A DNA stretch of 45,721 bases from Candidatus Omnitrophota bacterium. Its GTDB lineage: Bacteria; Ratteibacteria; UBA8468; MWAK01. Under the pieces are notes generated by a model that was not told where the DNA came from, ran no database searches, and was given only the letters and a program-made list of their open reading frames with translations. The translations under genes and the position numbers were made by a program. This document shows positions 5,104 to 30,877 of the stretch, in pieces. The first letter of the stretch is position 1. Every line of letters starts with the position of its first letter. The stretch covers positions 1 to 45,721 of the forward strand of contig JAZDPL010000077.1 of assembly GCA_043797665.1 (NCBI GenBank). Reading direction: 5' to 3'.

Positions 5104-6495
5104 ACACCTGGATTCCCGCTTACTGCACGCGGGAATGACAGAGGGGAGGCACGCGGGAATGACAGTTGAAATGGCACCGGCGAGGTAGAAGGAACCACAG
5201 ATACAGAGCAGTCCGTTTTCACCTAAGTTCTTCTCCGCCCCTTCTATTGCTTTTGCCGGCTCCGGAATAACCCGACATCTCTTACCCGGATAAATCCTAC
5301 TAAAAACCTTTTTTAACTCCGCCGGTTCGCGTGCCCGGTCGGAATCAGGCCGGGTAAAGATAAATTCCCGGCCGTACTCCCCTAAATATTTCAACATCAG
5401 CCGGTAATCTTTATCCTGAAGGACTCCCATGACAAAGCGGACATCCCTCCCCGGATAAAGTAAAGCGAGGTTGGTAATCAGGGTCTTGATTGCCGGAGGG
5501 TTATGGCTGACATCAAAGATAATTAAAGGTTCCCGGGAAACAACCTGGAGCCGGCCGGGCCAGACAATCTTCGCTAATCCGTTCCGTAAATCCTCTTCGG
5601 TTATAGTGCTGCCGGCAGACTGCAAAGCAAGCCAGGCGGTGGCAACGTTCTCAATCTGAAAACTGCCCGGTAGTGAAACGGTTAATCCGGAAATAGTTTC
5701 GTCCTGATAAGACAAAGAAAAGGATGGATTCCCGCTTACTGCACGCGGGAATAACAGAGGGGAGGCATGCGGGAATACGGGTCCCCTTTCCCCCGGATGG
5801 GAAAGAGCAGAAAGGATATCTTTGCCGGTCAGATAAAAGGACGCGGACAGTTCCTTTGCTTTCTTACGTAAAACTTTTAACGCTGCTGGTGCCTGTGGAC
5901 TGCAGACAACCGGTCTGCCCTCTTTAATGATACCCGCTTTCTCCCCGGTGATGGCAGCCAGACTGTTTCCGAGAAACCTGCGGTGTTCCATGCCAATCGG
6001 GGTAATTACGGAAACCAGAGGATTGATAACGTTGGTGGCGTCTAAACGACCGCCCATACCCACTTCCACTACTGCGTAATCTACCGGGTGGCGGGCAAAA
6101 TAAAGAAAAGCCGCAGAGGTTATCGTTTCAAAGTAGGTGGGACTATGGGGCAGGAATTTTGAGAGGGCAATAACCTGTGGTGCAATCTCAGAAATTAAAT
6201 CCGCAAAATTTTTGGGGCTGATTAGTTGATTATTAACCTGAATCCGTTCCCGGGTATCAATCAGGTGGGGTGAGGTATAGAGACCGGTACAATATCCCGC
6301 CTCGGTCAAAATACCGGCGATAATGCGGGCAACAGACCCTTTACCGTTGGTGCCGGCAATGTGGAAGGTTTTTAAATTCAGGCTCTTTTCCGGGTTACCC
6401 AGACGGGCCAGGAGCCTGTGGACGTTAGATAAACCTAACCGGATACCAAAACGTTCCCGGCTCTCCAGGAATGCAACCGCCTGCCGATAAGTCAT
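5074..6495 (-). CDS. folC: Folylpolyglutamate/dihydrofolate synthase
   Basis: [42 protein letters not shown]; true start is ATG 6495, the longer ORF runs through a MITE. Confidence 0.93.
5108..5164 (+). repeat. Family C palindrome (GGATTCCCGC-N9-GCGGGAATGACA) plus half copy; forms the folC C-terminal extension
   Basis: Near-identical to 5724-5777; related copies at 7695, 13966, 20626. Confidence 0.8.
5724..5808 (+). repeat. Family C repeat plus family D micro-element (5778-5807), in-frame inside folC
   Basis: Same sequence as 5108-5164 followed by cgggtcccctttcccccggatgggaaagag; folC frame stays open. Confidence 0.75.
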
Positions 6496-6496
6496 A

Positions 6497-6771
6497 GGGG
6501 TTGTTAAACAATAAAGTTGCCTATTTGCCAGAGGCGATTTTGGAACGAGACAAGGAGCGAAGAAGCTGGCGTACCCCCTGTGGTACGGAAGCGATGAGCG
6601 ACGCAGTCGTAGCCCAAAAGCGACCTGGCCCTTTATGGGGAGTCCCATCTTTGGGTCATTGCGGCGTTGCTCCTCGGTTATGTGCCACAGTGGGCACAAA
6701 ACCTTCGTCGCGCCTTGTACTAACCTCAAATCTGGGACTCCAAATAGTCAACTTTATTGTTTAACAACCCC
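6497..6771 (+). mobile_element. MITE-like element family A, copy 1 (275 bp), ddl/folC junction
   Basis: Perfect 23-bp TIR ggggttgttaaacaataaagttg (31 bp with 1 mismatch); body aligns with copies at 15953, 16684, 21049; no transposase. Confidence 0.9.
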
Positions 6772-8696: not shown

Positions 8697-8764
8697 GTAG
8701 GGGTTTGATTTATCAAACCCGCGGGTCGGATAAATCCGACCCCTACGTCAAAATATTTAATTCG
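8697..8764 (+). repeat. GTAG-type REP doublet (family B) with conserved tail
   Basis: gtagggtttgatttatcaaacccgcgggtcggataaatccgacccctac+gtcaaaatatttaattcg; copies at 19962 and 30765, halves at 40321-40429. Confidence 0.85.
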
Positions 8765-11156: not shown

Positions 11157-11256
11157 TGTCATTGCGAGCCCGAAGGGCGTGGCAATCTAGAGATTGCTCC
11201 CTTGCCAATCCTATGGCAAGGGGACCCGTGTCGCAAACCGCGCTCCTCGCAATGAC
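11157..11256. repeat. Family E inverted repeat (tgtcattgcgag...ctcgcaatgac) with family-D insert at 11199-11228
   Basis: Terminal IR gtcattgcgag/ctcgcaatgac, inner gcaatct/agattgc. Confidence 0.8.
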
Positions 11257-13965: not shown

Positions 13966-14042
13966 TGTCATTCCTGCGGATAGTAAGCAGGAATCCATAC
14001 CCCTAATCACTGGATTCCCGCTAAAAACATGCGGGAATGACA
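13966..14042. repeat. Inverted pair of family C palindromes
   Basis: tgtcattcctgc..gcaggaatcca / ctggattcccgc..gcgggaatgaca. Confidence 0.8.
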
Positions 14043-14061
14043 TAATAAATATACGTTTGTA

Positions 14062-15952: not shown

Positions 15953-16255
15953 GGGGTTGCTAAACAATAAAACAGACTATTTGGAGTCCCAGATTTGAGG
16001 TCAGTGCAAGGCACGACAAGGGTCCCCTTGTCATAGGATTGACAAGGGAAGGTTATGTGCCCACTATGGCACATAACCGAGGAGCAACGCCGCAATGACC
16101 CAAAGATGGGACCCCCCGAAGGGCCAGGCCGCTTTTGGGCTGCGATTGCGTCGCTCATCGCTTCCGTACCACAGGGGGTACGCCAGCTTCTTCGCTCCTT
16201 GTCTCGCTCCAAAATCGCCTCTGGCAAATAGTCAGTTTTATTGTTTAGCAACCCC
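15953..16255 (-). mobile_element. Family A copy 2 (303 bp = 273 + 30-bp family-D insert at 16019-16048)
   Basis: TIR ggggttgctaaacaataaa; TTA on both sides. Confidence 0.9.
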
Positions 16256-17420
16256 TTACCCCTATTTTTTCCCTAATCGGTTCCGGCAGGGCTTCCAGCA
16301 GGTCCTCCAGGTCAAGCCCTTTTGTCTCAAAAGAGAAGTCAAAACCTTTTTTGCCCATGGTGCCGGAAAGGGATATCTCTCCACCTGTTTGGGTAAAGAT
16401 ACGCACCTGGTTCAAGCGGCCTGATTCCGCAAAAAAGTCATAATAACCTTTAACCTCTCCGGAAAGCGGTGGAATCTGCTGCTGAGGGAAGAAAAGGTTC
16501 TGAAAGGAGAGGCAATAATCAACAGACTGCGCCTGCCACTGGTCTTTCTTGTGCCGGAAAGTAAAGTATACTTGACCATCCATCAACCCTTCGGTTGGCA
16601 TATCAGGCAGGTTAATTGATTTTTTCAATTCGGAAAGAGAAATCTTAACCAGATTCACGGAAAGTTTTCCATACTGACCTTCAGGGGCTGTCGCAGAATA
16701 AAGTTGACTATTTGGAGTCCCGGATTTGAGGTCAGTGCAAGGCGCGACAAAGGCTCTGTGCCCACTGTGGCACATAGCCGAGAAACAACGCCGCAATGAC
16801 CCAAAGATGGGACTCCCCGAAGGGCCAGACCGCTTTTGGGCTGCGACTGCGTCGCTCATCGCTTGCGTAGCGCTGTGGCTACGCAAGATTCTTTGCTCCT
16901 TGTCTCGCTCCAAAATCGCCTCTGGCAAATAGGCAACTTTATTCTGCGACAGCCCCTTAGTCTCAATCTGCCCGGAAAGATTAATCTCGCCGACCTTATC
17001 AATCTTTACCCGTAAGCCGGATACTTGATAGATACCGCTGATGAAATCACCTTTTACTTTGCCGGTGAGCCGGAGTGGTCTGGGTTCACCGGAACCAAAC
17101 TGCCCTTTTCCCGTCACTGCAAACAGGAAGGGTTCTTTAGAAACAGCTCTCTGCATCGTAATATTCGTTAAGGAAAGGGAAATTGGTGGTTTACCCCAAG
17201 CAGAAAAGTTAACCTCTTTTACGGAAAGACCGGGGCCGGGCAGTAGCATCGGTTCAACCAACCATACCTTTCCCTGACTATCGTGGTTTATCCGCCAGGC
17301 GATATACCTTCCAGCCAGTTCCGGCATGCTAAAACCTATCCCAAGAACGCTAAATGCAAACAGGCTGCCTAAGATAAGCAAAAATACCCTCGTCAGTTTT
17401 AATCGAACGATAGTAGTCAT
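16245..17420 (-). CDS. Hypothetical membrane-anchored beta-rich protein carrying an in-frame family-A insertion
   Basis: N-terminal TM helix; 92-aa element peptide internal; stop supplied by the copy 2 TIR. Confidence 0.6.
   Translation of the reverse strand: MTTIVRLKLTRVFLLILGSLFAFSVLGIGFSMPELAGRYIAWRINHDSQGKVWLVEPMLLPGPGLSVKEVNFSAWGKPPISLSLTNITMQRAVSKEPFLFAVTGKGQFGSGEPRPLRLTGKVKGDFISGIYQVSGLRVKIDKVGEINLSGQIETKGLSQNKVAYLPEAILERDKEQRILRSHSATQAMSDAVAAQKRSGPSGSPIFGSLRRCFSAMCHSGHRAFVAPCTDLKSGTPNSQLYSATAPEGQYGKLSVNLVKISLSELKKSINLPDMPTEGLMDGQVYFTFRHKKDQWQAQSVDYCLSFQNLFFPQQQIPPLSGEVKGYYDFFAESGRLNQVRIFTQTGGEISLSGTMGKKGFDFSFETKGLDLEDLLEALPEPIREKIGVRGC
16684..16956 (-). mobile_element. Family A copy 3 (273 bp), in-frame in a CDS
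   Basis: TIR ggggctgtcgcagaataaagttg; flanks tca/tta. Confidence 0.9.
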
Positions 17421-18867: not shown

Positions 18868-19932
18868 TTACTTACAACGCAAAAAACATTCTTCCGGGAT
18901 ACCCAGTTCCTTACATAATCCCATCGCCTCCTTAACATACCGTTTGGTCAACGCGTCCCGGTAGCCGCTGACTGTGGGAAAGTCTTTATATTTTCTTAAA
19001 TGGGCCTGAGCCTTTTGCCAGAAAAGTTCCCGGACATATTTCCCGAAGAGAGAAGCCAGTGCAATTAGAAAAGACGAATCTTCGCCATCTTCAAGGTAGG
19101 AAATTTTGCCAACCGTATCCAGCCCAACGTTAGGGGTTGTCATCTCTGGCAAATAGTTAGTTTTATTCTGCGACAACCCCTCAATAAAGTAGGAGGAAAT
19201 TTTCTTATCCTCCCTGACTTTTACCACGGAGTGTTCTGCGCCAAAGGTCAGAGAAAGCATTGGGAAATAATACCGCATCCCGCCGACCTTCCCTAAGGAA
19301 GCCCAAAAAGGTTCGCCATCTAAAGACTGACGCACGAGATTCAAGCCAGCCTCGACGACCAGGTCTGACTTGTTCTTCCCCCCACTTTTTAACGCGCGGT
19401 TGAATAACGAAGGACAAACCACCAGAGACCGGACTCTTTCCAGAGATACCCCGGCTCCGTTAGCCTTCTCCTTTAACTCTGCCGCTAAGTCCATAATCTT
19501 TCTTGAACGGTCCTGGCTCAGGTTCAAAGGGATGTCGGTCTCCCAGCAAAACGCAATCTCTCCTTTAGGCAACCCTTTATCCAAACAAGGAAATTGAACG
19601 TTTAAAACCGGGTTTGCCAGTATCCGGTCTAAAAATTCATCCGCGGTCTCCGGAATATACCCCTCAGAAAGATAGAAAAACCCAAGGACCATATCTTCCG
19701 CAGAGCGGGCCCGTTTCCGACTATTCCCAAACACCAGTTTACTGTCACAGACAAAAGGAGTTTCGCCCGGCTGTTTTTCCAGATTCAGGAGGAGCCACAA
19801 ATCAGGCACTTCTTCAGTCAAAAACCCGGAAGAATTAAGAAATGCTGAAGGAGACGTTACAGAAACCGCAGTAACCACCAGCGGTCCTAAGAGCGGTCCA
19901 TAACCGTTCTCGTCAACTCCAATCAGTCTCAT
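18868..19932 (-). CDS. RNase HII-like protein
   Basis: IGVDENGYGPLLGPLVV, DSK, IALASLFGKYVRE, SGYRD. Confidence 0.65.
   Translation of the reverse strand: MRLIGVDENGYGPLLGPLVVTAVSVTSPSAFLNSSGFLTEEVPDLWLLLNLEKQPGETPFVCDSKLVFGNSRKRARSAEDMVLGFFYLSEGYIPETADEFLDRILANPVLNVQFPCLDKGLPKGEIAFCWETDIPLNLSQDRSRKIMDLAAELKEKANGAGVSLERVRSLVVCPSLFNRALKSGGKNKSDLVVEAGLNLVRQSLDGEPFWASLGKVGGMRYYFPMLSLTFGAEHSVVKVREDKKISSYFIEGLSQNKTNYLPEMTTPNVGLDTVGKISYLEDGEDSSFLIALASLFGKYVRELFWQKAQAHLRKYKDFPTVSGYRDALTKRYVKEAMGLCKELGIPEECFLRCK
19133..19180 (-). mobile_element. Internally deleted family A remnant (48 bp), in-frame
   Basis: tta-ggggttgtc...ctctggcaaatagttagttttattctgcgacaacccc-tca; peptide GLSQNKTNYLPEMTTP. Confidence 0.85.
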
Positions 19933-19961: not shown

Positions 19962-20029
19962 GTAGGGGCTTGATTTATCAAGCCCGCGGGTCGGATAAAT
20001 CCGACCCCTACGTAAAAATATTTAATTCG
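19962..20029 (+). repeat. Family B GTAG REP doublet
   Basis: Near-identical to 8697-8764. Confidence 0.85.
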
Positions 20030-20035
20030 TTTGCA

Positions 20036-20620
20036 TCAGGTAATGAGAAAAATACTGTAGTCGGCAAAAAGGTTCGGAAAGAGACAGACCCGACGGTGAC
20101 CCCAAAGATGAAAATCCGAAAGCACTTTTAGATTTTCCTGCCGGCAGAAAAGAATAAAATCTTTAAGACTTAAGAAATGAAGGTTTGGCGTATCGTACCA
20201 CTGGAAAGGTAAGGAACGGTTAATCGGCACCCTTCCCAGAAGGGAGATTTGGAAACGTGCACCTAAATGGCAAAAATTGGGAAAACCGACCACCACCTTT
20301 TCACCCACCCGCAACGCTTCACTAATAACCGTCCTGGGGTGACGGACTTCGGACAGGCTGCCGTTGAGAATAACGTAATGGAAACTCTTATCCGGATAAT
20401 CGGAAAGCCCTGCATCCAAATCGCCGTGAAGAACATTGACTCCGCGTCTGACACATTCCGCAATCGCTTTCTGGTCTATTTCAATCCCCTGGCCCTTAAT
20501 ACCCTTCCTTTTCGCCAGGAGAGCCAGCAGTTCGCCGTCACCGCAACCTAAGTCCAGGACACTGCTTCCTTCGGTTACAATATCAGAAATAATCCTGTAA
20601 TCCGGTCTGATTTTTTCCAT
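20036..20620 (-). CDS. metW: Methionine biosynthesis protein MetW
   Basis: RPDY, VLDLGCGDG, FPNF.H, LPFQWYDTPNLH; follows metX. Confidence 0.9.
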   Translation of the reverse strand: MEKIRPDYRIISDIVTEGSSVLDLGCGDGELLALLAKRKGIKGQGIEIDQKAIAECVRRGVNVLHGDLDAGLSDYPDKSFHYVILNGSLSEVRHPRTVISEALRVGEKVVVGFPNFCHLGARFQISLLGRVPINRSLPFQWYDTPNLHFLSLKDFILFCRQENLKVLSDFHLWGHRRVCLFPNLFADYSIFLIT

Positions 20621-20625
20621 AGATA

Positions 20626-20658
20626 CTGGATTCCGGCTTACTATCCGCCGGAATGACA
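20626..20658 (+). repeat. Family C palindrome between metX and metW
   Basis: ctggattccggc-ttactatcc-gccggaatgaca. Confidence 0.75.
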
Positions 20659-20660
20659 GA

Positions 20661-22055
20661 TTACTGACGCTGGGCATCTAAAAAGTTCTTAACCAATCGG
20701 CCTTGTTCTTCCATCTCCACCAGAAAAGCATCGTGGCCATAGTCAGACGGTATTTCACAATAGGTAACCCCGGCACCGTGGCGTTTCAATACCCGGACAA
20801 TCTGTTCTGAATCGGATGGCGGATAAAGCCAGTCGGAACTGAAACTTAAGACCAAAAATTTCGTTTTAATCCCGCGGAAAAGGTCCCGTCCATAATCAGC
20901 AATTAAATCAAAGAAGTCCATCGCCTTGGTGATGTAAAGGTATGAATTGGCGTCAAAACGCTGGACAAAACTGTCTCCTTTGTAGCGCAGATAACCTTCC
21001 ACTTCAAAATCGGCGGTAAAGTCGAAACTATACTTTTCTTTGCCATTAGGGGCTGTCGCAGAATAAAGTTGACTATTTGGAGTCCCGGATTTGAGGTTAG
21101 TGCAAGGCGCGACGAAGGCTCTGTGCCCACTGTGGCACATAGTCGAGGAACAACGCCGCAATGACCCAAAGATGGGACTCCCCGAAGGGCCAGGCCGATT
21201 TTGGGCTGCGACTGCGTCGCTCATCGCTTCCGTACCACAGGGGGTACGCAAGCTTCTTCGCTCCTTGTCTCGCTCCAAAATCGCCTCTGGCAAATTGTCA
21301 ACTTTATTCTGCGACAGCCCCTTATGCCGGCGGCCGAACTTTTCCTCCATTGAGGCGTCGCTCATATAGGTAATGTGGCCGATCATCCGTGCCAGGGCTA
21401 AACCTTTTGCCGGTACACTCTTTCCGTAATAGTCACCGCGGCTCCAGTCCGGGTCAGACATAATGGCCTGCCGGCCCACCTCATCAAAGGCGATCTGCTG
21501 GGCGGAGTGGCGCAAAGTAGTAGCCACCGGAATAGCGGACTGCACCATCTCCGGATAGGCGGCCACCCACTGCAAAACCTGCATCCCGCCCATGGAACCT
21601 CCGGCAATCGCATAAATCTTTTTTATACCTAAATGTTCCACCAGAAACCTCTGGCAATTGACCATATCGGCGACGGTGATGATGGGAAAGGTCAAACCAT
21701 AGGGTTTTCCGGTAACCGGATTGACGGAAGAAGGCCCGGTACTACCCCGGCATCCCCCCAGAATATTAGAACAGATTACAAAATAGTGGTTGGTGTCAAA
21801 AGGTTTGCCCGGTCCGACCATTGGCTCCCACCAGCCAGTCTTACTTTCTCCTTTGTGGTAGCCTGCCACATGGCTGTCACCGGATAGCGCATGGAGAATA
21901 AGGATTGCGTTGGACCGGTTATTATTCAACTGACCGTAGGTCTCATAGGCTAAGGTAATTGGACCGAATTGCTGACCGCTTTCCAGCAATAGTCCTTCCG
22001 GTGCTTGAGCAAAAACAAGATATTTTGTCTCAATAAAACCAGCGTTTTTTTCCAT
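20661..22055 (-). CDS. metX: Homoserine O-acetyltransferase with a 92-aa in-frame MITE insertion
   Basis: HALSGD, GGSMGGMQ, ARMIGHITY, RFDANSY, SDWLYP, YGHDAFL. Confidence 0.93.
   Translation of the reverse strand: MEKNAGFIETKYLVFAQAPEGLLLESGQQFGPITLAYETYGQLNNNRSNAILILHALSGDSHVAGYHKGESKTGWWEPMVGPGKPFDTNHYFVICSNILGGCRGSTGPSSVNPVTGKPYGLTFPIITVADMVNCQRFLVEHLGIKKIYAIAGGSMGGMQVLQWVAAYPEMVQSAIPVATTLRHSAQQIAFDEVGRQAIMSDPDWSRGDYYGKSVPAKGLALARMIGHITYMSDASMEEKFGRRHKGLSQNKVDNLPEAILERDKERRSLRTPCGTEAMSDAVAAQNRPGPSGSPIFGSLRRCSSTMCHSGHRAFVAPCTNLKSGTPNSQLYSATAPNGKEKYSFDFTADFEVEGYLRYKGDSFVQRFDANSYLYITKAMDFFDLIADYGRDLFRGIKTKFLVLSFSSDWLYPPSDSEQIVRVLKRHGAGVTYCEIPSDYGHDAFLVEMEEQGRLVKNFLDAQRQ
21049..21321 (-). 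mobile_element. Family A copy 4 (273 bp), in-frame in metX
   Basis: TIR ggggctgtcgcagaataaagttgac; TTA duplicated on both sides. Confidence 0.92.
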
Positions 22056-23226: not shown

Positions 23227-24159
23227 CTATAGGTTCAAGTCGGCAAAGAGGGCGGTGCTCAAATAGCGTTCACCGGTATCCGGGAAGACCACCACGACCA
23301 ATTTCCCTTTACTCTCCGGCCGGCCGGCTGTCTGCAGCGCAACCCAGGCCGCCGCACCGCTGGAAATTCCGGCTAAAATCCCTTCTTCTTTCATCAAACG
23401 TTTGGCGGTCGTTATGGCGTCATCATTTCCCACGGTGATAACCTCATCAATTACCTTGCGATTCAAAACGTCCGGAATAAAACCCGCGCCGATTCCCTGA
23501 ATCTTATGCGGACCAGGCTGACCTCCGGAAAGAATCGGTGAATCCTCCGGCTCCACTGCGATAATCTTAAGGCCAGGTTTCCTCTTCTTCCAGACCTCAG
23601 CCACGCCGGTAATGGTACCGCCGGTACCTACACCGGAGACAAAGATATCCATCTTGCCGTCGGTATCCCGCCAGAGTTCTTCCGCAGTGGTCTTCCTGTG
23701 AATCCGGGGGTTGGCGGGATTCTTAAACTGCTGAGGAATAAAAGAATTTCTGGTCTTTCGCGCAATCTCCTCTGCTTTATCCACCGCACCCCGCATTCCT
23801 GAAGTACCTGGCGTCAGTTCCAATTGCGCACCGAATGCCTTCAAAAGGGTACGCCTTTCCATACTCATCGTCTCCGGCATCGTTAAGATAAGCCGGTATC
23901 CGCGGGCTGCGCAGACAAACGCCAGGGCAATGCCGGTATTGCCGCTGGTGGGTTCAATAATAACCGTATCCTTATTAATCAGACCCGCTTCTTCCGCCGC
24001 ATCAATCATCGCCACGCCGATCCGGTCCTTAACCGAACTGCAGGGATTAAAAAATTCCAATTTCGCCGCTACCTCTGCCTTCAGACCTTCGGTTACCTTA
24101 TTCAGTCTTACCAAAGGTGTGTTGCCTACCAACCCGGTAATATCTTTCGCAATCTTCAT
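23227..24159 (-). CDS. cysK: Cysteine synthase A
   Basis: [45 protein letters not shown]. Confidence 0.95.
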
Positions 24160-24175
24160 TCTCCGACTCCCATTC

Positions 24176-25492
24176 CTACCGCTGACTGGCAGAAAGCGCC
24201 TGGTCCAAATCAGCGATAATGTCTTTAACGTTCTCCAGCCCTACGGAAAGACGTACGTAATCTTCGGTAACACCGGTACCAACCCGTTCTTCCGGAGTCA
24301 ACTGCTGGTGGGTGGTAGTGGCCGGGTGGATAATCAGGGTCTTGGCATCACCGATATTAGCCAGATGGGAAATCAGATTCACGGAATCAATCAACTTCCG
24401 ACCCGCCTTTTTACCTCCTTTGATACCAAAACCAATTATGGCACCAAACCCCTCCTTTAAAAACTTCTTTGCCCGGCTGTAGTCCGGATGGTTGGGTAGA
24501 CCGGGATAATTAACCCAGTCAACCGCAGGATGTCTTTCCAGCCAGCGGGCAGATTCAAGAGCGTTTTTAGAATGCTGACGCACCCTTAAGGGAAGTGTCT
24601 CCACCCCCTGGAGAATTAAAAATGAATTAAAGGGAGAGATACAGGGTCCGATGTCCCGAAGTAATTGAACTCGTGCTTTCAGAATATAAGCCAGACCGGG
24701 AACCTTCGCTTTCTTATGGTTGCCAAAGGCGGTCCAGTAGGATAGACCACTGTACGAGGGGTCTGGTTCGGTAATCTCCGGGAATTTACCGTTTGCCCAG
24801 TTAAAAGTACCACCCTCAATAATCGCACCGCCCAAACTGGTGCCGTGACCACCTAAAAATTTGGTCAGGGAATAGACCACGATGTCCGCACCTAATTTTA
24901 TTGGCTGTAAGAGCGGCGGCGGAGAAACCGTGTTGTCAATAATAAAAGGAATCCCATACCGGTGGGCTACTTCCGCGATTCCCGGGTAATCGTCAACGTT
25001 GTTTTTGGGGTTGCCGATGGATTCGGTGTAAAGAAGCCGCGTATTCTTATCAACAGCCTTAGCAAAATTTTCCGGTTTCGAAGAATTGACAAAACGGACC
25101 TCAATCCCCATCTTGGACAAAGTGTAGTGAAAAAGGTTATAGGTACCGCCGTAGAGGTAAGTGGTGGAGACGATATTCTGACCTGCCTTAGTAATGTTGA
25201 GTATTGCCAAGAAAATTGCCGCCTGCCCGGAAGAGACCACTAAACCACCTCTGCCACCGTCCAGTTCTGCCAGTCTCTTTTCCAAAACGTCGGTGGTTGG
25301 ATTCATAAGCCGGGTATAAATGTTCCCGAATTCTTTTAAAGCAAAGAGGTTCGCGGCGTGTTCGGTGTTCTTAAAAACGTAACTTGTGGTCTGATAAATC
25401 GGGACCGCCCGGGCACCGGTTACGGAATCAGCTTCCTGTCCGGCGTGTAAAGCCTGGGTTTCTATCTCCTGTTTCGCTTGTGCCTTTTTCAT
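24176..25492 (-). CDS. metY: O-acetylhomoserine sulfhydrylase
   Basis: [46 protein letters not shown]. Confidence 0.9.
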
Positions 25493-30764: not shown

Positions 30765-30877
30765 GTAGGGGGCGGATTTATCCGACCCGCGGGCTCAATA
30801 AATTGAGCCCCTACACTTCTTGTCTCGCTCCAAAATCACCTCTGGCAAATAGTCGATTTTATTCTGCGACAGCCCCC
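30765..30877 (-). repeat. Family B REP doublet (30765-30814) abutting a truncated family A end (~30817-30877)
   Basis: ttgtctcgctccaaaatcacctctggcaaatagtcgattttattctgcgacagccccc-tta matches the end of copies 3/4; supplies the bioC stop. Confidence 0.8.

What the first reader, a model, noticed from the sequence alone, without database searches (positions are those of the whole stretch)
21046..21324. 273-bp MITE inserted in-frame into metX, adding a 92-aa cassette to an apparently intact enzyme
Seen: the element has long TIRs and a TTA duplication. Removing the element plus one TTA restores ...FGRRH-NGKEKYSF..., a 372-aa MetX. Catalytic motifs (GGSMGG, SDWLY, GHDAF) are intact and no stop is introduced, because 273+3 is a multiple of 3 and the frame is open. 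Known: Rickettsia palindromic elements do this with shorter units. Inference: this is a frame-preserving mobile element that either makes a tolerated loop (the site after KFGR is a variable loop in MetX) or is removed at the RNA level through its terminal stem.
Basis: partly seen in the sequence, partly recalled or inferred. Interest (0 to 1): 0.85.

Follow-up and report, generated by a model that had tools for sequence, protein, structure and literature searches.

The report
Mobile DNA tolerated inside enzyme genes
A 273-base mobile repeat sits in frame inside the methionine-pathway gene metX of an uncultured bacterium; its complete copies found inside otherwise whole genes all use one reading frame, so it is likely translated as a floppy 92-residue loop that the enzymes tolerate and later shrink by deletion, a larger version of a behaviour known from Rickettsia.

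Summary
In detail: a 273-bp element with 31-bp inverted ends and a 3-bp target duplication adds 92 codons to metX without a stop; close relatives lack it. The genome holds 24 complete copies. Only one of six frames can be open, and all 8 complete mid-gene copies found by DNA search (metX, mfd, comEC, cysN-like, a hypothetical gene; ispE, rtcB intein, pcm in relatives) use it. One-armed or collapsed remnants in pheT, prmC, queC and an RNase HII-like gene are in that frame too. This favours translation into a tolerated, predicted disordered loop that erodes by deletion, and argues against RNA-level removal. In MetX the insert lies in a lid loop called non-critical in a structure paper; the modelled core is intact. 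Activity and expression are untested; one copy marks a truncated paralog. No partner transposase was found. Unexplained: both arms carry copy-specific, matched variants, and there are hints of inverted alleles. It works like Rickettsia palindromic elements but is twice as long. The scan noted look-alike elements on other DNA before.

The parts
21049..21321 (-). 273-bp MITE-like element; its single open frame runs with metX
21291..21321 (-). 5' arm in gene sense (31 bp; outer 21 bp co-vary with the other arm across copies)
21049..21079 (+). 3' arm in gene sense (31 bp)
21046..21048 (.). target-site duplication, copy 1 (TTA / TAA)
   Evidence: 3-bp duplication shown by filled/empty site pairs
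21322..21324 (.). target-site duplication, copy 2
21048..21323 (-). 92-codon cassette (MetX residues 245-336), predicted disordered
   Evidence: no Pfam, NCBIfam or Atlas hit
20661..22055 (-). metX, homoserine O-acetyltransferase, 464 aa with insert; catalytic S154 (21594-21596), D408 (20832-20834), H441 (20733-20735)
20036..20677 (-). metW, overlapping the metX stop
16684..16956 (-). second complete copy, in frame in a hypothetical gene (16245-17420), a shortened paralog
15953..16255 (-). 303-bp copy in another phase, exactly where that paralog stops matching its 500-540-aa homologues (probable disruptive copy or deletion breakpoint)
6497..6771 (+). 275-bp copy between ddl and folC
19133..19180 (-). 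48-bp collapsed copy adding 17 codons in frame to an RNase HII-like gene
30816..30876 (-). partial copy (one arm plus about 30 bp), outside long ORFs

Best explanation
The insert is one copy of a transposase-less mobile repeat family with 3-bp TWA target duplications and a single open reading frame, and in metX it is likely translated as a 92-residue, predicted disordered loop that probably leaves the enzyme working. Shown: ends, duplication, family, frame bias, empty orthologues, in-frame remnants. Inferred: an unidentified transposase acting in trans inserts it at TWA sites in any phase and orientation; copies that put a stop into a needed gene are purged; copies in the one open phase, at loops, termini or gene junctions survive; the cassette is neutral filler and is later trimmed by deletions that keep the frame, leaving scars of 4-17 residues. 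Untested: expression, the peptide, enzyme activity.
For: Frame: in 18 of 24 genome copies one frame is stop-free; the other five frames have stops in all 24. Complete copies well inside genes: 5 of 24 in this genome, 2 of 34 in nine relatives (ispE, rtcB intein), 1 among 12 new sites from a metagenome DNA-pattern scan (pcm): all 8 in the open frame and orientation, against 24-35% expected for phase alone (p 1e-5 to 2e-4) and half that with orientation. Unbiased arm scan: 30 arms outside complete copies, 0 in a reversed-genome control; 4 lie inside long ORFs, all 4 in that frame. Orthologue alignments confirm the remnants in pheT, prmC, queC and the RNase HII-like gene and the full insert in mfd. 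The only ispE found in G006 carries the insert and shows dN/dS 0.20-0.25 against 0.17 for the pair without the full insert; comEC 0.30 against 0.26-0.32 for four comparison genes; pcm 0.18. MetX: 13 departures at 185 highly conserved columns against 12 for the empty relative; AlphaFold core mostly pLDDT above 90, residues 244-336 below 50, top fold match 2PL5; the site falls, by my mapping, in the aL4-aL5 lid loop that 10.1101/808071 calls 'likely not critical' (passages). No second metX, no metA and no metQ found in the 86%-complete genome, while a methionine-synthase domain and homoserine dehydrogenase are present. The cassette shows no amino-acid-level selection (29 synonymous of 101 variants, 25-29% expected).
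Against: No RNA, protein or activity data. The 15953-16255 copy, in another phase, marks a truncated paralog, and that same paralog holds one of the 8 in-frame copies, so it does not show tolerance. A second TPI sequence (P0019) has the same insert but frameshifts inside it. dN/dS averages over time before the insertion; for metX dS to relatives is saturated and the window lineage has slightly more changes than P0020 (about 9 against 4 by my count, including P73T and both residues beside the insert). Helices aL4 and aL5 help the dimer and the dimer was not modelled. Mid-gene status was judged by ORF length and family scans, with orthologue checks for only some copies. No mover found.
Confidence: 0.7

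Rival explanations
1. The insertion is in frame but has crippled MetX; the gene is a young pseudogene or hypomorph and frame bias elsewhere does not apply to it.
For: 92 residues in a lid next to dimer helices; both flanking residues changed from conserved Leu and Lys, plus P73T; relatives of several families lack a metX match, so the pathway can be missing; insertion may be too recent for decay.
Against: No stop or frameshift; conservation equal to the empty relative; rest of the pathway present and no substitute found; the family record shows in-frame copies are kept while others are not.
Confidence: 0.16
2. The element's core can flip between its arms (template switching or recombination), giving an open allele and one with a stop at the 16th codon: an on/off switch or at least a recurrent null allele.
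For: Outer 21 bp of the two arms mismatch at 1.6% although copies differ strongly there, and arm type is unrelated to core similarity (permutation p 0.54), as arm homogenisation with spacer inversion predicts (PMC8604942, PMC5941160, abstracts). One site shared with a close strain has the opposite orientation. Low-depth contigs of runs X1 and X3 join the metX upstream flank to the other end's interior; the X3 contig is also deleted and would be in frame.
Against: Short-word contigs can mis-join across a 31-bp inverted repeat; the X3 piece has 11 differences; the shared site differs in arm type and left flank and may be two insertions; the other shared site keeps its orientation; all 8 mid-gene copies are in the open orientation. 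Nothing shows regulation.
Confidence: 0.07
3. The stem is cut out of the mRNA or skipped by the ribosome, so normal-length MetX is made.
For: Very stable closed fold; compensatory pairs in arms and inner hairpins; removal of 276 nt keeps the frame.
Against: Such removal would work in any phase, yet 8 of 8 use the open phase; one-armed remnants without a stem stay in frame in pheT, prmC and queC; no Rfam match; pairs are almost all Watson-Crick with no G-U bias to the sense strand; no intein features or Pfam hit.
Confidence: 0.04
4. The insertion or its orientation is an assembly artefact.
For: No contig bridged both junctions; two show the other orientation.
Against: Exact duplication and open frame; an X1 contig joins the metX flank to the arm with 0 differences over 111 nt; mis-assembly would not put all mid-gene copies in one orientation and frame.
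Confidence: 0.03

Closest known systems
Rickettsia palindromic elements (RPE; Ogata et al. 2000, 2002, as summarised in PMC10969869, PMC2229807, PMC3184786; passages read, originals not read)
   Same: Palindromic repeat inserted in frame into unrelated conserved genes, encoding a shared peptide; an RPE-bearing guanylate kinase was reported active, with changed affinity (PMC2229807).
   Different: RPEs are about 105-150 bp; this is 273 bp (92 codons) with a regular 3-bp TWA duplication, shown by filled and empty sites, and a series of in-frame scars. No sequence comparison with RPEs was made.
Bacterial MITEs with open frames: 107-bp Correia, ERIC, YPAL/RU-2, BRE (PMC2229807 passages; PMC3184786 passages and section 15)
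   Same: Inverted ends, target duplication, no transposase, stable fold, mostly at gene boundaries, in-frame fusions.
   Different: Longer cassette; copy-specific arm variants that match between both ends; no partner IS identified.
Intragenic GTAG/CGTC REPs (PMC3733652, passages)
   Same: In-frame inserts in known proteins, explained by purging of inactivating copies and location in loops.
   Different: REP units are 20-40 bp and dimers encode 20-30 aa; this element has true terminal repeats and a duplication.
IS5-family elements with 3-bp TWA/TNA targets (IS1031, ISL2 groups) and Tourist MITEs (recalled; not checked in a call)
   Same: 3-bp TWA-type target and G-rich ends.
   Different: No transposase gene with these ends was found; the link is a lead only.

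Membership tests
Prokaryotic MITE | Terminal inverted repeats around a core under 500 bp | tested here: met
Prokaryotic MITE | Target-site duplication | tested here: met
   exact in 29 of 58 copies, 25 of them TAA or TTA; 3-bp overlap at empty sites C44 and C38
Prokaryotic MITE | Dispersed copies and filled/empty polymorphism | tested here: met
   24 complete copies; 11 of 31 and 13 of 65 genomes
Prokaryotic MITE | No transposase encoded | tested here: met
   no family hit for the only open frame
Prokaryotic MITE | Autonomous IS with the same ends | tested here: inconclusive
   none among transposase loci of this genome or 11 DUF772 loci of the phylum; genomes incomplete
RPE-like coding palindrome | In-frame insertion in unrelated conserved genes with a shared peptide | tested here: met
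RPE-like coding palindrome | Length about 105-150 bp | tested here: not met
   261-327 bp
RPE-like coding palindrome | Sequence homology to Rickettsia RPE families | not tested
   no RPE sequence was fetched
RPE-like coding palindrome | Host protein translated with the insert and active | not testable with these tools
   needs proteomics and an assay
Self-splicing intron or other RNA-excised element | Ribozyme fold; independence from reading frame | tested here: not met
   no Rfam match at E up to 1; 8 of 8 in one phase
Intein | Hint domain with Cys/Ser start and His-Asn end (recalled) | tested here: not met
   no Pfam or NCBIfam hit; cassette starts Lys-Gly and ends Ala-Pro
MetX homoserine O-acetyltransferase | Family score, Ser-Asp-His triad, alpha/beta-hydrolase plus lid fold | tested here: met
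   PRK00175 500.5 bits, cut-off 331 (TIGR01392 459.7, below its 500)

The most novel reading that the evidence does not exclude
A frame-aware, invertible mobile cassette: its core flips between self-homogenising arms, so one insertion toggles a housekeeping gene between a translated-loop allele and a stop allele, and deletions then fix small in-frame scars, making it both a switch and a peptide-seeding mutagen in core enzymes.
Probability: 0.1. Interest if true: 0.82.

Novelty: new variant of a known kind. Interest (0 to 1): 0.52.

Why it matters
It would be an unusually large case of selfish DNA living as protein inside core bacterial enzymes (MetX, IspE, TPI, Mfd), with the whole life cycle visible: empty sites, full 92-residue inserts and 4-17-residue scars. 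That makes the old question from Rickettsia, whether such inserts are neutral and how they add sequence to proteins, testable with natural filled/empty gene pairs, and it maps loops that accept large inserts. The matched, copy-specific arms point to an end-copying or inversion process not explained here. For annotation, such genes should not be called pseudogenes by length alone.

Tried and rejected
Expression: no RNA holder listed; only DNA contigs of five runs were laid, none spanning the element. A metagenome scan for the metX site found 0 matches. Cluster look-up for P0020 could not be made, so its DNA was not seen and no dN/dS for the post-insertion metX branch exists. Partner transposase: PF01609, PF13751, PF01797, PF13359, PF13586 in this genome and PF05598 in 65 genomes gave none with matching ends; an arm beside the C13 transposase is an unpaired remnant. 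No match in plasmids or phages, Rfam or the ESM Atlas (no usable hit, which shows nothing). Selection on the peptide rejected; 0 stops in 101 variants against about 3-4 expected is only a weak hint of stop avoidance. Sub-family masters as the cause of arm types not supported. L039/L155, the C89 copy and L186 first looked mid-gene but lie at gene junctions. C22:13554 rejected as a poor arm match. The cysN-like and C89 genes had no orthologue among 8 relatives. MetX dimer not modelled: a textbook pair would pass by likeness. Ogata 2002 not held. Literature searches for this family found nothing relevant: 'MITE'+'Omnitrophota' 1 unrelated paper, 'Ratteibacteria' 9 listed, none on repeats by title, none; the library lacks most subscription papers; no supplements were read.

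Full report
1. Observation. The element spans 21049-21321 (273 bp) between two TTA triplets. Its arms pair over 31 bp with one mismatch and the transcript folds at -148.5 kcal/mol, z -9.65. The minus-strand ORF 20661-22055 has 464 codons and no stop; removing 276 bp in a script gives 372. It is a MetX followed by metW. Eleven relatives matched MetX; the 10 whose junction was printed lack the insert, as does the closest database protein P0020, 95% identical. P0020 has Leu-Lys where the window has His and Asn beside the insert. A same-family genome's MetX matches a protein labelled Candidatus Ratteibacteria, which is my only guide to the taxon.

2. The family. The genome (2.69 Mb, 86% complete) holds 24 complete copies of 261-327 bp, 18 of them a multiple of three once the duplication is added, 14 with an exact 3-bp duplication. 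The element matched in 11 of 31 genomes by DNA and 13 of 65 of the phylum by peptide, own genome included. I fetched 40 regions around the longer matches in relatives; of 39 rows with both ends called I dropped five (no right end, a duplicate, two mis-ended rows, one partial), leaving 34; five more were cut by contig ends. Over 58 copies the target is TWA: 29 exact duplications, 25 of them TAA or TTA. Sites filled in close strains and empty in this genome show the 3-bp overlap directly (C44, C38). No transposase with these ends was found.

3. Frame. One frame is stop-free in 18 of 24 copies; the other five contain stops in all 24. Five copies here lie well inside genes: metX, mfd, comEC, a cysN-like GTPase and a hypothetical gene. 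Relatives add ispE and an rtcB intein. A DNA-pattern scan of metagenomes gave 32 loci, 23 with a right end called, 12 of them new sites, one mid-gene (pcm). All 8 use the open frame and orientation; 24-35% is expected for phase alone from the genome's own target sites, p 1e-5 to 2e-4. Most other copies sit at gene junctions, where the ends can supply stop codons or, in one asd gene, apparently a start (my reading of the flanks). Against: the copy at 15953-16255 is in another phase exactly where the hypothetical gene stops matching its 500-540-aa homologues; a full-length paralog lies on C47, so this gene may be dispensable and its in-frame copy shows little. A peptide search, which is biased to open frames, returned 19 proteins, with internal cassettes also in TPI, a polyprenyl synthetase and a radical-SAM-associated protein; one TPI sequence frameshifts inside the cassette.

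4. Fate. A weight-matrix scan found 30 arms outside complete copies and none in a reversed-genome control; 4 are inside long ORFs, all in the open frame. Alignments with orthologues confirm scars in pheT (about 18 residues replacing about 8), queC, the RNase HII-like gene at 19133-19180 (+17) and, below the scan's threshold, prmC (+4). One-armed scars cannot form the terminal stem, so these genes must be read through element sequence. The cassette shows neutral synonymous/non-synonymous counts. Hosts look constrained: the only ispE found in G006 has dN/dS 0.20-0.25 against 0.17, comEC 0.30 against 0.26-0.32 for four comparison genes that themselves carry scars, pcm 0.18; these averages include time before insertion.

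5. MetX itself. AlphaFold with 120 sequences gives a confident core and pLDDT below 50 for 244-336; the best fold match is Leptospira MetX 2PL5. The insert follows the short helix after the conserved Arg223/Tyr230 helix, which I map to the aL4-aL5 loop that 10.1101/808071 describes as variable and likely not critical, while noting that these helices strengthen the dimer (passages). Among close homologues the loop is 14-15 residues. The window's protein departs at 13 of 185 highly conserved columns, P0020 at 12. No other metX, metA or metQ was found; a methionine-synthase domain and homoserine dehydrogenase were. Activity is inferred, not shown.

6. Unexplained arms and orientation. Positions 5, 8-11, 13 and 20 of the arms differ widely between copies (14 types in 24), yet the two arms of a copy mismatch at 1.6% over positions 1-21, against 12.8% at 22-27; arm type is unrelated to core similarity over 39 copies. 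Inner hairpins co-vary too. Template switching is reported to homogenise arms and invert spacers (PMC8604942, PMC5941160; abstracts). One of two sites shared with close strains has the opposite orientation, with another arm type and left flank. Low-depth contigs of X1 and X3 join the metX flank to the other end's interior, which would put a stop at codon 16; the X3 contig is also deleted and would be in frame. Contigs built from short words can mis-join here, so this stays a hint.

7. Mechanism. Most likely (0.70): trans-mobilised MITE, random phase at insertion, survival of open-frame or junction copies, translation as a disordered loop, erosion by deletion. Rivals: crippled MetX (0.16), invertible switch (0.07), RNA removal or bypass (0.04), artefact (0.03).

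8. Known kinds. It meets the MITE features except an identified partner. It works like Rickettsia RPEs and the in-frame fusions of Correia, ERIC, BRE and REPs (PMC10969869, PMC3184786, PMC2229807, PMC3733652; passages) but is about twice the RPE length and was not compared with RPE sequence. It fails intron and intein tests. I found no paper on this family (listings only). Earlier notes of this scan describe look-alike elements in Omnitrophota, including an in-frame copy and co-varying arms; they are unchecked notes and not counted as support. Verdict: real, a new variant of a known kind, interest 0.52.

Noticed in passing
window 16245-17420 and G000 C47:5748-6941: The window's hypothetical gene is a shortened paralog; the full-length orthologue of the family protein lies on C47.
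   Followed up: partly
window 16014-16049 and 11198-11233: A 30-nt hairpin is nested in the 303-bp copies and also stands alone; a 24-nt insert occurs in other copies. Earlier notes describe this tiny family.
   Followed up: no
window 8697-8746, 19962-20011, 30765-30814; 5108-5160, 5724-5776, 14010-14045, 20626-20661: Two further hairpin repeat families (GTAG-type and GGATTCC-type); similar repeats flank the two Y1 transposase loci L101 and L102.
   Followed up: no
L079 1541-1811 (G006): An ATG within the element's arm appears to be in frame with the asd gene and may serve as its start.
   Followed up: partly
L085 1569-1835 (G013), P0014: The element sits in frame inside the intein of an rtcB gene: a mobile element within a mobile element.
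   Followed up: partly
L217 (G003) ispE, codons 20-25: A few extra residues at the site where G006 has the full insert; possibly a collapsed scar.
   Followed up: partly
L008 / P0025: A relative's MetX has a natural 16-residue duplication-like insert just after the same loop.
   Followed up: no
L181: A copy whose flanks map to two different contigs of this genome and whose arms differ: recombination between copies or a chimeric contig.
   Followed up: no
L119 (G000 C56:7710): An in-frame arm remnant inside a protein of about 2,800-2,900 residues with glycosyltransferase and glucoamylase-like domains.
   Followed up: no
L028 (G000 C61), mfd: Mfd has 8 extra residues before the cassette besides the 92, perhaps a second repeat remnant.
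   Followed up: no
window 23227-25492: ORFs resembling cysteine synthase and O-acetylhomoserine sulfhydrylase lie upstream on the same strand as metX (my reading; not scanned).
   Followed up: no
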